Assembly: GCF_009914755.1 (NCBI RefSeq)
Contig: NC_060930.1
Length of the DNA: 64,000 bases
DNA from: the human T2T-CHM13v2.0 reference genome, Homo sapiens
Reading direction: 5' to 3' (one strand)
Shown: positions 1 to 2,877 of the stretch, in pieces
How positions within the stretch are numbered: the first letter of the stretch is position 1
Layout of the letters: the number at the start of each line of letters is the position of its first letter
The notes under the pieces: model-generated
Told to the model about the DNA's origin: nothing
Database searches by the model: none
What the model saw: only the letters and a program-made list of their open reading frames with translations
Made by a program: the position numbers and the translations under genes

Positions 1-225
1 CAGGAGATCGAGACCATCCTGGCTAACATGGTGAAACCCTGTTTCTAAAATACAAAAAATTAGCCCTGCAGGCGTGGTGGCGGGCACCTGTAGTCCCAGC
101 TACTCGGGAGGCTGAGGCAGGAGAATAGCGTGAACCCAGGAGGCAGAGCTTGCAGTGAGCCGAGATTGCGCCACTGCACTCCAGCCTGGGCGACAGAGCG
201 AGACTCTGTCTCAGAAAAAAAAAAA
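1..225 (+). mobile_element. AluY (cut by the window edge)
   Basis: AluY-type diagnostics GAGATCGAGACCATCCTGGCTAAC and GAGCTTGCAG; A tail. Confidence 0.9.
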
Positions 226-375
226 GAAACCAGGTTGCCATTACCTGGGCCATTACAACAACTTCCAATCATTCTCTCTTCCAGTTCAGTCTCTATAGCA
301 CAGCTGGTGTAATTATTCTAAAATATCTCTGATCATGTCTCTCTCTTCTGAAAATATTTGCCTCACTTGTTTCAG

Positions 376-480
376 AAAATGGAATCATCAAGACAGATAA
401 AGTATTTGAAGTGATGCTGGCTACAGACCGCTCCCACTATGCAAAATGTAACCCATACATGGATTCTCCACAATCAATAG
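376..480 (+). CDS. PCMT1: PCMT1 exon 2 (105 nt)
   Basis: tttcag|AA AAT GGA...TCA ATA G|gtaagc; translates (K)[34 protein letters not shown](G), matching the recalled PIMT N-terminal region. Confidence 0.98.
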
Positions 481-741
481 GTAAGCTTTAGATTTCTGAA
501 AATATCATAGTTTTCATCATTTACTTTATGATTTTTGGAAGTAGAAAAAGCCTGGGACACAGATATTTATCTATTATTACCTTCTTAATTTGAATTTTAT
601 GACTCAGCAAGTTTCATAATCCCAAACATACCTATTTTAATAAAATTATGTATGTTTTTCTGTTTTCTCGAACAATATATAATATGTATAAAGAATTAAA
701 AACATTTTTTGAAATAAAATATTTTAGTGAAAAAAACTTTT

Positions 742-1032
742 GTATTTGGAGACGGAGTCTCATTCTATCATCCAGGCTGGATTGCAGTGGCACAATATCG
801 GCTCACTGCAACCTTCACCTCCTGGGTTCAAGCAGTTTTCCTGCCTTAACCTCCCGAGTAGCTGGGATTACAGGTGCATGCCACCACGCCTGGCTAATTT
901 TTTGTATTTTAGTAGAGACGGGGTTTCAGCGTGTTGCCCAAGCTGGTCTCGGAACTCCTGAGCTCAGGCAAACCACCCGTGTTGGCCTCCCAAAGCACTA
1001 GGATTACAGGCATGAGCCACCACACCCTGCCG
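742..1032 (-). mobile_element. Alu (S-type)
   Basis: Antisense Alu consensus; flanked by AAAAAAACTTTT repeats. Confidence 0.9.
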
Positions 1033-1950
1033 TAAAAAAAAACTTTTAATGAAAACTTACAGTATTAGCCGAGTGCTGAGTTTTCTTTAGGGGCCTTAGT
1101 GTTGACTAAAGATTAGTTTTCAGGTTAGGATTAATTTTTTAAATCAATATTTAAATAAGTGTGCTTAAGTTATTAATGACTTCTCTGCTTTATTTGCCCT
1201 GCTTTTTTGGCTTGTGTTTGTTTTTAGAAAGTCCTGTATTTAACTCCTTCTCCTGAAGCAGGTTTTGCTGAACTGCTGAGCCTTGGCAGTGGGCGCCTTT
1301 GAGGCTTAGAAGTGCCTCAGGATTCTGTCAGTCGGCTGCCATGCTATCTTCTTTTGACGCACTATAACAGTCAGCAGAGAAGATCCTGGGGAGCTTCTGA
1401 ACCCCGAAGGCACCTGCTACCACCGCTCAGTGAAACTTGCTTCAGAGGCAGAAAGAAGCAGGTAAATAAGTTTTGAGAAAGCAACACCACAAGAAAAGAA
1501 ACTAAAAGTTAAGAACCACGAAAAGATTGTGTGAATTAACATTAGATGATAAGATAAAGAATAAAATGAAGTATTTTATTGGTCTTTTAAGCTACTTTTT
1601 CAGTTATTCTAGTTTTTTTTTAAGTTGACAGAAATATGAAGCAATTTAATTTTGCACAGACTTTGTATACCTATTACATATGAAAACTTATTTTTAAAAA
1701 ACAATCTGAAGTAAAAACAAGCCAAAAATATATCAACTCTCAACTTACTGAAATTTTTCTTTTCTTAGCTGACTCTACAGGAGAAGAAATTTTTAGCTGC
1801 CGTACTTTAGAGGGACTGTTTTACTAGATGAGCACGTTACCCTTTGGCATGATTATATTTTCTAATTTTAACTGCTGGGTGACAGTACTCTAATAGAAGT
1901 AAGTTTTATTTTCTTGAGATCATAAAAACTAAAAAAGAATTATTGTGAAA

Positions 1951-2249
1951 GCCGGGCGTGGTGGCTCACGCCTGTAATCCTAGCACTTTGGGAGGCCGAG
2001 GTGGGTGGATCACGAGGTCAGGAGATCGAGACCATCCTGGCTAACACGGTGAAACCCCATCTCTACTAAAAGTACAAAAAATTAGCCGGGCGTGGTGGTG
2101 GGGGCCTGTAGTCCCAGCTACTCGGGAGGCTGAGGCAGTAGAATGGCGTGAACCTGGGAGGCGGAGCTTGCAGTGAGCCAAGATCGCGCCACTGCACTCT
2201 AGCCTGGGCGACACAGTGAGACTGTCTCAGAAAAAAAAAAAAAAAAAAA
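1951..2249 (+). mobile_element. AluY
   Basis: Full length; TSD AAAGAATTATTGTGAAA at 1934-1950 and 2247-2263. Confidence 0.93.
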
Positions 2250-2351
2250 GAATTATTGTGAAAAATAACGTATGGATGGTAGAAAAGAAATTATGTGAAA
2301 TAGTATATTTTTACAGCTGACTGTATCAGTAGTTCTCTTCTTCTTTTGCAG

Positions 2352-2383
2352 GTTTCCAAGCAACAATCAGTGCTCCACACATG
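2352..2383 (+). CDS. PCMT1: PCMT1 exon 3 (32 nt)
   Basis: ttttgcag|GT TTC CAA GCA ACA ATC AGT GCT CCA CAC ATG|gtaagt = (G)FQATISAPHM; phase matches exon 2. Confidence 0.97.
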
Positions 2384-2565
2384 GTAAGTTAAGTTTGTTC
2401 ACTTGGTTACAAATGGATTACATTTTTCTCTATAATCATTTTCTTTAGTAAAAAAGATTTAAAGAAAGTTGTATCAATTTATCATCTATGAGTTATGTGA
2501 ATTGGTAATGAACATCATTTTCTTTTTTGAACATCTTATTCTTAATACAGGGTCTGTAGAAGGAG

Positions 2566-2877
2566 TTTTGTTTTGTTTTGTTTTGTTTTGTTTTTGAGAT
2601 GGAGTCTCGCTCTGTCGCCCAGGCTAGAGTGCAGTGGCACAATCTCGGCTCACTGCAACCTCCCACTTCCGGGTTCATGCCATTCTCCTGCCTCAGCCTC
2701 CCCAGGAGCTGGGACTATAGGTGCCCACCACGATGCCCGGCTAATTTTTTATATTTTTAGTAGAGACGGGGTTTCACGGTCTTAGCCAGGATGGTCTCGA
2801 TCTCCTGACCCTCGTGATCCGCCTGCCTCGGCCTCCCAAAGTGCTGGGATTACAGGCGTGAGCCACTGCGCTTGGCC
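2566..2877 (-). mobile_element. AluY with a (TTTTG)n tail
   Basis: Antisense AluY diagnostics; flanked by the AGAAGGAG(T/C)TTT repeat. Confidence 0.92.

What the first reader, a model, noticed from the sequence alone, without database searches (positions are those of the whole stretch)
1..2877. Inverted AluY pair tightly flanking exons 2-3: back-splicing geometry, with the hairpin exon as possible circle cargo
Seen: a sense AluY ends 150 nt before exon 2 and an antisense AluY begins about 180 nt after exon 3. Established: flanking inverted Alus promote circRNA formation. Exons 2+3 total only 137 nt, small for a circle; adding 1228-1461 gives 371 nt, about half of it in one dsRNA stem. Internal Alus (742-1032 antisense, 1951-2249 sense) offer competing pairings around exon 2 alone, exon 3 alone or the hairpin exon. 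The 137-nt circle has no rolling ORF: ATG AAA ATG GAA... stops after 13 codons. Inference: the cryptic exon may be preferentially included in the circle.
Basis: partly seen in the sequence, partly recalled or inferred. Interest (0 to 1): 0.72.

Follow-up and report, generated by a model that had tools for sequence, protein, structure and literature searches.

The report
Known PCMT1 exon 2-3 circular RNA

Summary
The anatomy is as described. A sense Alu ends about 150 nt before PCMT1 exon 2 (376-480). An antisense Alu starts about 184 nt after exon 3 (2352-2383). Two more Alus and a 234-nt hairpin with AG/GT borders (1228-1461) lie in intron 2.

The predicted back-splice 2383>376 is not new. 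It is circBase hsa_circ_0006936, also Arraystar hsa_circRNA_104220, at hg19 chr6:150092297-150094305. Its 2008-nt span equals 376..2383. I saw it listed in tables or text passages of six blood, plasma or RNA-seq papers.

The "tight pair" is not privileged. Alu-like sequence covers 30% of the window. The outer pair (A:D) is no more stable than the competing pairs A:B and C:D, and its arms lie much further apart. Six antisense elements follow exon 3, and a second sense Alu plus an antisense run precede exon 2.

The hairpin is a decayed palindrome with no strand bias and no Rfam match. Included in mRNA it would be a poison exon, with a TGA after 10 codons. I found no transcript or circle evidence for its inclusion, though the most relevant full-length catalogue (isoCirc) could not be opened.

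The parts
1..226 (+). Sense Alu A (window part; the full element is -67..226), with A-tail, ending about 150 nt before exon 2. It lies in the tail of a second sense Alu, A0 (-360..-68), outside the window.
376..480 (+). PCMT1 exon 2 (105 nt). Its acceptor is the back-splice acceptor of hsa_circ_0006936 and of hsa_circ_0078247.
   Evidence: hub table
742..1032 (-). Antisense Alu B in intron 2, of an older S/J-like type by recalled motifs. A 12-nt target-site duplication lies at 730 and 1036.
1228..1461 (+). Putative cryptic 'hairpin exon'. The palindrome core is 1253-1445 and may reach 1237-1468. AG at 1226-1227, GT at 1462-1463. The fold has 83 pairs, 14 of them G-U, and the longest helix is 14 bp. 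In the PCMT1 frame it brings a TGA after 10 codons.
1781..1898 (+). Second AG..GT candidate exon of 118 nt, with donor GAA|GTAAGT. It also brings in-frame stops.
1950..2249 (+). Sense Alu C in intron 2 with A-tail. Its flanks share a word of up to 20 nt at 1931 and 2244. It is the nearest and near-best partner of D.
2352..2383 (+). PCMT1 exon 3 (32 nt). Its donor is the back-splice donor of hsa_circ_0006936 and of the circPCMT1 listed in PMC8233375.
   Evidence: hub table
2567..2877 (-). Antisense Alu D, with a (GTTTT)n-type tail at 2567-2594, starting 184 nt after exon 3.
3201..4341 (-). Run of five further antisense Alu elements (3201-3352, 3435-3733, 3738-3919, 3920-4203, 4211-4341). They are alternative partners for the upstream sense Alus. 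E4 (3920-4203) is the best partner for A of the six partners tested.

Best explanation
This is the locus of a catalogued exonic circular RNA of PCMT1, hsa_circ_0006936. It is made by joining the exon 3 donor (2383) to the exon 2 acceptor (376).

The most likely mechanism is ordinary intron pairing. One of the two tandem sense Alus just upstream of exon 2 (A0, A) base-pairs with one of six antisense Alu elements in the first 2 kb of intron 3. That brings the two splice sites together. The flanking introns are long, about 20 kb and 17 kb.

D's nearest and stronger partner is the internal sense Alu C, and A's best partner among those tested is E4.

The 234-nt hairpin is a decayed, GC-rich palindrome of unknown family that happens to carry good splice-site motifs. 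In linear mRNA it would be a poison exon. It is at most a minor, unproven isoform component of the circle.

Shown: the anatomy, the identity with the catalogued junction, the relative duplex energies, and the stop codon. Inferred: that Alu pairing drives the back-splice, and which pair does so.
For: - Identity with the catalogue. hg19 chr6:150092297-150094305 and hg38 chr6:149771161-149773169 are on the + strand, typed 'exonic', gene PCMT1. They are named hsa_circ_0006936 or hsa_circRNA_104220 in passages of PMC9009243, PMC7063791, PMC6798000, PMC9658433, PMC10276386 and PMC12982432 (RT-qPCR). The span of 2008 nt equals 2383-376+1, and no other PCMT1 exon pair in the window is about 2 kb apart.
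- Both sites recur in other catalogued circles. The exon 3 donor (149773169) is in PMC8233375. The exon 2 acceptor (150092297) is in hsa_circ_0078247, which has 12 nanopore reads.
- RNase R. A circPCMT1 was RNase R resistant in HEK293T.
- Inverted Alus. Real inverted pairs are shown.
- Duplex energies: A:D -495, C:D -531, A:B -429, A:E4 -536, A:U1 -457, C:B -429 kcal/mol. Window-part A against five shuffles of D gave about -119 to -139.
- Alu census. 71 Alu-like blocks cover 30% of the window. Intron 1 holds runs of both orientations.
- Hairpin arms: 60 Watson-Crick, 10 G-U, 9 A-C, 7 transversion-type oppositions and 9 gaps. Both strands fold well (-101.7 and -91.9 kcal/mol). GC is 51% against 35% in the surrounding non-Alu intron 2 (1048-1949).
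- Hairpin family. No Rfam family matches.
- Hairpin copies. The only match in the whole genome is the hairpin itself, 1 of 1 candidate.
- Poison exon. Inclusion gives ...SIESPVFNSFS*.
Against: - No experiment on this locus links the Alus to the circle. A search for PCMT1 + back-splicing + Alu found 5 papers, judged from titles and abstract openings to be reviews; I did not read where PCMT1 occurs in them.
- The energetically and kinetically favoured state, A:B + C:D (-960 kcal/mol against -924 for A:D + B:C), would bracket exon 2 alone and exon 3 alone, not the observed circle. Simple pairing energetics therefore do not predict the product.
- The duplex energies ignore intramolecular folding and proteins.
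- The identity rests on equal span and gene/exon type, not on a coordinate lift-over to T2T.
- The internal composition of the circle was not documented in anything I could read, so the cargo idea is not excluded.
- The 'multiple PCR bands' of a circPCMT1 could be isoforms.
Confidence: 0.8

Rival explanations
1. The hairpin exon 1228-1461 is preferentially spliced into the exon 2-3 circle, giving a 371-nt circle with a long internal duplex. Linear mRNAs that include it are removed by nonsense-mediated decay.
For: - Consensus-like splice sites: 15 of 20 pyrimidines before TAG|AAA, the same as exon 2, and donor CAG|GTAAAT.
- Inclusion creates a premature stop, so only a circle would escape decay.
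- The inverted pair B:C brackets it.
- A circPCMT1 gave multiple divergent-PCR bands.
- circRNA-specific exons are a reported phenomenon (title and abstract opening of PMC8355340).
Against: - No RefSeq transcript uses it (hub table).
- 0 hits for its six border coordinates in the 18 supplement files of PMC8355340.
- 0 hits for those coordinates in all main texts.
- 0 papers hold both 'PCMT1' and 'cryptic exon'.
- The palindrome may extend to 1237-1468, so the donor GTAAAT faces TATTTAAC. In the wider MFE fold, positions 1452-1471 are paired.
- The arms show no strand-specific conservation of pairing, with G-U 10 against A-C 9.
- Caveat on the negatives: the exon 2-3 circle itself is absent from the part of the nanopore tables that I searched, so those negatives are weak.
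Confidence: 0.1
2. The circle arises mainly without Alu pairing. It could form from a lariat containing exons 2-3 after exon skipping, or through RNA-binding proteins that bridge the long flanking introns.
For: - Simple pairing energetics favour A:B + C:D, which does not bracket exons 2-3 together.
- The flanking introns are long (hub table).
Against: - Per the hub table, the other RefSeq transcripts differ in the window only at the 3' exons, so no annotated transcript skips exons 2-3.
- Skipping removes 137 nt and shifts the frame.
- Sense Alus upstream and a run of six antisense elements downstream give many across-intron pairs.
Confidence: 0.08
3. The junction is an artefact of reverse-transcriptase template switching or of read mapping across Alu-rich sequence.
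For: Most records that I saw are array probes or short-read calls.
Against: - The junction lies exactly at canonical exon borders, not in repeats.
- It was called independently by RNA-seq, arrays and RT-qPCR.
- A circPCMT1 was RNase R resistant.
Confidence: 0.02

Closest known systems
hsa_circ_0006936 (circBase) = hsa_circRNA_104220 (Arraystar), PCMT1 exons 2-3
   Same: Same gene, same strand, 'exonic' type, and a span of 2008 nt that equals 376..2383.
   Different: Nothing in the junction differs. What I could read gives no internal exon composition and no biogenesis study for it.
Inverted-Alu (complementary-sequence) mediated exon circularization, with competition between pairs across and within introns. 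Recalled from Jeck 2013, Zhang 2014, and Liang and Wilusz 2014; not read here.
   Same: Inverted Alus lie within a few hundred nt of the back-spliced exons, the flanking introns are long, and several alternative pairings exist.
   Different: No deletion or mutation test exists for this locus. The circularized exons are unusually short (137 nt). The closest pairings bracket single exons rather than the observed pair.
circRNA-specific or cryptic exons seen by long-read sequencing (PMC8355340; title, abstract opening and supplements seen)
   Same: The idea that an exon absent from mRNAs can persist in circles.
   Different: No read evidence here. 0 of the 6 searched border coordinates of 1228-1461 occur in that paper's 18 supplement files.
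Imperfect intramolecular duplexes of circRNAs that bind PKR (recalled from Liu et al. 2019; not read here)
   Same: A circle carrying the hairpin exon would hold an imperfect duplex.
   Different: The duplex would be far longer, at 71-83 pairs, than the 16-26 bp I recall for that class. The circle form itself is hypothetical.

Membership tests
Exonic circRNA made by back-splicing | A recorded junction joining a downstream donor to an upstream acceptor at annotated exon borders | tested here: met
   hg19 chr6:150092297-150094305 and hg38 chr6:149771161-149773169, PCMT1, exonic. The span of 2008 nt equals 376..2383. The match rests on span and gene, not on a lift-over.
Exonic circRNA made by back-splicing | Canonical AG and GT at the two back-spliced sites | tested here: met
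   The acceptor context ends in ttcag before AAA at 376, and ATG is followed by gtaagt after 2383.
Exonic circRNA made by back-splicing | Resistance to RNase R | tested here: inconclusive
   A circPCMT1 was reported resistant in HEK293T. Its coordinates are in a preprint supplement that is closed.
Inverted-Alu mediated circularization | Complementary repeats in opposite orientation in the two flanking introns | tested here: met
   A:D pairs over 155 nt at 86% and 47 nt at 89%. The full-length duplex is -495 kcal/mol with 255 pairs. There are also five more antisense elements downstream and a second sense Alu upstream.
Inverted-Alu mediated circularization | Circle yield depends on the repeats (deletion or mutation test) | not testable with these tools
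   This needs minigenes or genome editing. No such study was found.
AluY subfamily (outer pair) | Subfamily-diagnostic positions against a consensus library | tested here: inconclusive
   No consensus library is held. Reading against four recalled motifs gave the Y state at A 4/4, C 4/4, D 3/4 and B 0/4. Pairwise identities are A-C 86.8%, C-D 88.0%, and B to the others 78-82%.
Cassette or poison exon (1228-1461) | Functional-looking acceptor and donor | tested here: met
   15 of 20 pyrimidines then TAG|AAA, and CAG|GTAAAT.
Cassette or poison exon (1228-1461) | Transcript evidence of inclusion | tested here: not met
   It is not in the RefSeq table (hub). 0 hits. GENCODE, GTEx junctions and the isoCirc tables could not be consulted.
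Precursor of a known microRNA family | Match to an Rfam covariance model | tested here: not met
   No miRNA family matches over 1180-1500 at E up to 10. The only two hits are chance-level bacterial families. None was found either.
Non-autonomous DNA transposon (MITE-like palindrome) | Terminal inverted repeats, target-site duplication and other copies in the genome | tested here: inconclusive
   The arms are about 70% complementary (60 of 86 ungapped columns). I did not look for a target-site duplication. There is no other copy in the window. The only match in the whole genome is the element itself, 1 of 1 candidate, but that search is blind to old, diverged copies.

The most novel reading that the evidence does not exclude
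A minor isoform of hsa_circ_0006936 includes the 234-nt palindromic poison exon, and perhaps also the 118-nt candidate at 1781-1898. That isoform would be a decay-immune 371-nt (or 489-nt) circle whose 70-80-pair imperfect duplex makes it a long-lived ligand for double-strand RNA binding proteins such as ADAR, PKR or Staufen. The 'multiple PCR bands' reported for circPCMT1 would be these isoforms.
Probability: 0.12. Interest if true: 0.45.

Novelty: already known. Interest (0 to 1): 0.15.

Why it matters
The product is already a database entry used as a blood biomarker candidate, so nothing new follows for PCMT1 biology.

The locus has some value as a worked example. The tightest-looking inverted Alu pair is not the energetically or kinetically preferred one, yet the circle spanning both exons is the catalogued product.

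The only open point of interest is whether a structured poison exon survives selectively in the circle. That would matter for how circles present double-stranded RNA to innate-immune sensors.

Tried and rejected
- Full-length circRNA catalogues:
  - PMC8355340 supplements have no row ending at 150094305 in the first 12 of 18 files, one of which was cut when stored.
  - The same supplements have 0 hits for the six hairpin-exon coordinates in all 18 files.
  - circFL-seq (PMC8550772) supplements gave 0 hits in 12 of 16 files.
I did not use that tool again, so the catalogue most likely to hold a 137-nt or 371-nt form was not seen.
- Conserved poison-exon list (PMC11632617): 0 PCMT1 rows in 1 file.
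- A four-term search for cryptic, poison or pseudo-exons was badly designed. 0 of its 15 listed papers held PCMT1. The two-term repeat gave 0 papers.
- Splice-site accessibility by local folding did not discriminate. The unpaired probability of the donor 9-mer was 0.004 for the hairpin exon, 0.003 for exon 3 and 0.021 for exon 2, against a regional median of 0.008. I draw no argument from it.
- Strand-specific selection on the hairpin: rejected. G-U 10 against A-C 9, and the minus strand also folds at z -3.7.
- Known miRNA precursor: rejected. The sub-threshold mir-1268, mir-3135, mir-1285 and mir-619 hits all lie inside Alus and below their gathering scores.
- Translation of the circle: no endless ORF. 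The longest ATG-started ORF has 45 codons.
- Cross-species conservation: not testable, because no primate or other mammalian genome is held.
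Full report
**1. What is in the sequence**

- A sense Alu with an A-tail ends near 226.
- PCMT1 exon 2 lies at 376-480.
- An antisense Alu (B) lies at 742-1032.
- A 234-nt stretch at 1228-1461 is bordered by AG and GT.
- A sense Alu (C) lies at 1950-2249.
- Exon 3 lies at 2352-2383.
- An antisense Alu (D) has its (GTTTT)n-like tail starting at 2567 and its body ending at 2877.

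The distances are about 150 nt (226 to 376) and 184 nt (2383 to 2567), as stated. Flank words that look like target-site duplications bound B (12 nt at 730 and 1036), C (up to 20 nt at 1931 and 2244) and D (8 nt at 2558 and 2879).

The subfamily name AluY could not be tested against a consensus, because none is held. I read against four motifs that I recall as diagnostic. A and C are Y-like at four of four, D at three of four, and B at none. Pairwise identities agree that B is the odd one out: A-C 86.8%, C-D 88.0%, and B to the others 78-82%.

**2. Is the geometry more than chance?**

Only mildly. A BLAST census with Alu C as the query finds 71 Alu-like blocks covering 30% of the 64-kb window. 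Of 94,437 random 2008-nt intervals with both ends outside Alus, 50% have inverted nearest Alus and 6.9% have both within 250 nt.

Each of exons 2 and 3 also has its own inverted pair. A and B bracket exon 2. C and D bracket exon 3.

**3. The predicted junction already exists in catalogues**

A text search for PCMT1 circles led to passages that give the following entry:

- hsa_circ_0006936 (circBase), which is hsa_circRNA_104220 (Arraystar).
- hg19 chr6:150092297-150094305, + strand, 'exonic', PCMT1.
- hg38 chr6:149771161-149773169.

The sources I saw were passages only:

- PMC9009243, RNA-seq of blood.
- PMC7063791.
- PMC6798000.
- PMC9658433.
- PMC10276386.
- PMC12982432, RT-qPCR.

The span of 2008 nt equals 2383-376+1, and no other pair of PCMT1 exons in the window is about 2 kb apart. 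I take this as the same junction. No lift-over to T2T was possible.

Both splice sites recur in other catalogued circles:

- The exon 3 donor recurs in a circPCMT1 at hg38 149765691-149773169 (PMC8233375).
- The exon 2 acceptor recurs in hsa_circ_0078247 (150092297-150123552), which has 12 nanopore reads in human brain (PMC8355340 supplement).

A preprint reports a circPCMT1 that is RNase R resistant but gives 'multiple PCR bands' with divergent primers (10.1101/115980). Its coordinates are in a closed supplement.

**4. Which Alus pair?**

The window's own genome is held, so I fetched intron 1.

- Alu A is full length (-67..226). It sits in the tail of a second, older-looking sense Alu, A0 (-360..-68).
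- Upstream of A0 lies a run of antisense Alus (-3321..-1048, five blocks), and then a run of sense Alus.
- Downstream of exon 3 lie six antisense elements (2567-4341) before the first sense Alu at 4628.

RNAduplex energies are a crude measure, with no intramolecular folding and no proteins. They give:

| Pair | Energy (kcal/mol) | Arms apart (nt) | Note |
|---|---|---|---|
| C:D | -531 | 362 | brackets exon 3 alone |
| A:B | -429 | 529 | brackets exon 2 alone |
| B:C | -429 | 917 | within intron 2 |
| A:U1 | -457 | 980 | within intron 1 |
| A:E4 | -536 | 3707 | best partner of A among the six tested |

Window-part A against five shuffles of D gave about -119 to -139 kcal/mol.

The state A:B + C:D (-960) beats A:D + B:C (-924), and it also forms first during transcription. 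The most stable arrangement that still brackets exons 2-3 is A:E4 with C:D nested inside it.

The circle most likely relies on redundant pairing between the upstream sense Alus and the downstream antisense run. That Alu pairing drives the circle at all is inferred from general knowledge, which I recall and did not read here. A search for PCMT1 + back-splicing + Alu found 5 papers, which I judged from their titles and abstract openings to be reviews.

**5. The hairpin**

*Structure.* The + strand folds at -101.7 kcal/mol (z -5.6). The minus strand folds at -91.9 kcal/mol (z -3.7). In a wider fold the main stem has 83 pairs, 14 of them G-U, and its longest uninterrupted helix is 14 bp.

*Arms.* Arm against arm gives 60 Watson-Crick, 10 G-U, 9 A-C and 7 transversion-type oppositions, plus 9 gaps. 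That is about 70% DNA complementarity with no excess of G-U over A-C. This is the pattern of a decayed DNA palindrome, not of an RNA structure kept by selection.

*Origin.* Its GC content is 51%, against 35% for the surrounding non-Alu intron 2 (1048-1949). It has no other copy in the window. Its only match in the genome search is itself, 1 of 1 candidate, but that search would miss old, diverged copies. It matches no Rfam family. I read it as an old palindromic insert, perhaps a MITE-like relic of unknown family.

*Splice sites.* The motifs are as good as those of real PCMT1 exons. It has 15 of 20 pyrimidines then TAG|AAA, and a CAG|GTAAAT donor.

*Donor inside the palindrome.* The palindrome may reach 1237-1468, which would put the donor inside the stem base. 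A local-folding accessibility measure did not separate it from exons 2 and 3.

**6. Coding consequences**

It has no endless ORF, and its longest ATG-started ORF has 45 codons.
- Inclusion of 1228-1461 in the PCMT1 frame gives ...SIESPVFNSFS*. It would be a poison exon in mRNA.
GAA|GTAAGT). It also brings stops.
- A folded 371-nt circle keeps 71 pairs inside the hairpin exon, which is 142 nt or 38% of the circle.

**7. Evidence on the cargo idea**

For:
- The splice sites are good.
- A circle would be immune to nonsense-mediated decay.
- The B:C pair brackets the hairpin.
- A circPCMT1 gave multiple PCR bands.

Against:
- It is absent from RefSeq (hub table).
- Its six border coordinates have 0 hits in the 18 supplement files of the nanopore study.
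- They have 0 hits in the main texts of the library.
- No paper holds both 'PCMT1' and 'cryptic exon'.

These negatives are weak. The exon 2-3 circle itself is missing from what I could search of the nanopore tables, possibly because it is so short. The circFL-seq supplements were searched only in 12 of 16 files.

I put the chance that the hairpin exon is a detectable isoform component at about 0.12. The chance that it is the preferred form is lower.

**8. Verdict**

The main interpretation is correct but already known. The mechanistic emphasis on one tight Alu pair is not supported by the pairing landscape. The cargo hypothesis is untested.

Interest is low. The residual interest lies in the possible structured, decay-immune isoform.

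Noticed in passing
L004:640-1226 (window -360..226): Two tandem sense Alus lie directly upstream of exon 2. The Y-like A sits in the A-tail of an older-looking A0, and the word ACCAGGTTG flanks the A0+A unit on both sides.
   Followed up: partly
upstream of the window, about -5102 (L003): The alternative circPCMT1 acceptor listed in PMC8233375 (hg38 149765691) maps to about -5094 if the assemblies are colinear. The nearest AG is before -5102, at the head of a sense Alu behind a (TTTTTA)n tract. It may be a cryptic acceptor made by a T-rich tract plus an Alu head.
   Followed up: partly
window 1781-1898: A second AG..GT candidate exon of 118 nt has a perfect GTAAGT donor and 15 of 20 pyrimidines before its acceptor. 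It brings in-frame stops if included.
   Followed up: partly
window 2567-4341 and upstream -3321..-1048: Large-scale mirror arrangement of Alu orientation around exons 2-3. In order: an antisense run, two sense Alus, exon 2, B (antisense), C (sense), exon 3, an antisense run, then sense Alus at 4628 and 5077.
   Followed up: partly
window 1-4500: Sub-threshold Rfam hits to mir-1268, mir-3135, mir-1285 and mir-619 all fall inside Alu elements and below their gathering scores. They are Alu-derived look-alikes, not separate genes.
   Followed up: yes
window 31570-31786: hsa_circ_0078247 (hg19 150092297-150123552) would end at window 31630 if the assemblies were colinear. That is 109 nt short of the annotated alternative exon end at 31739. 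T2T and hg19 probably differ by indels in the Alu-rich introns, or another donor is used.
   Followed up: no
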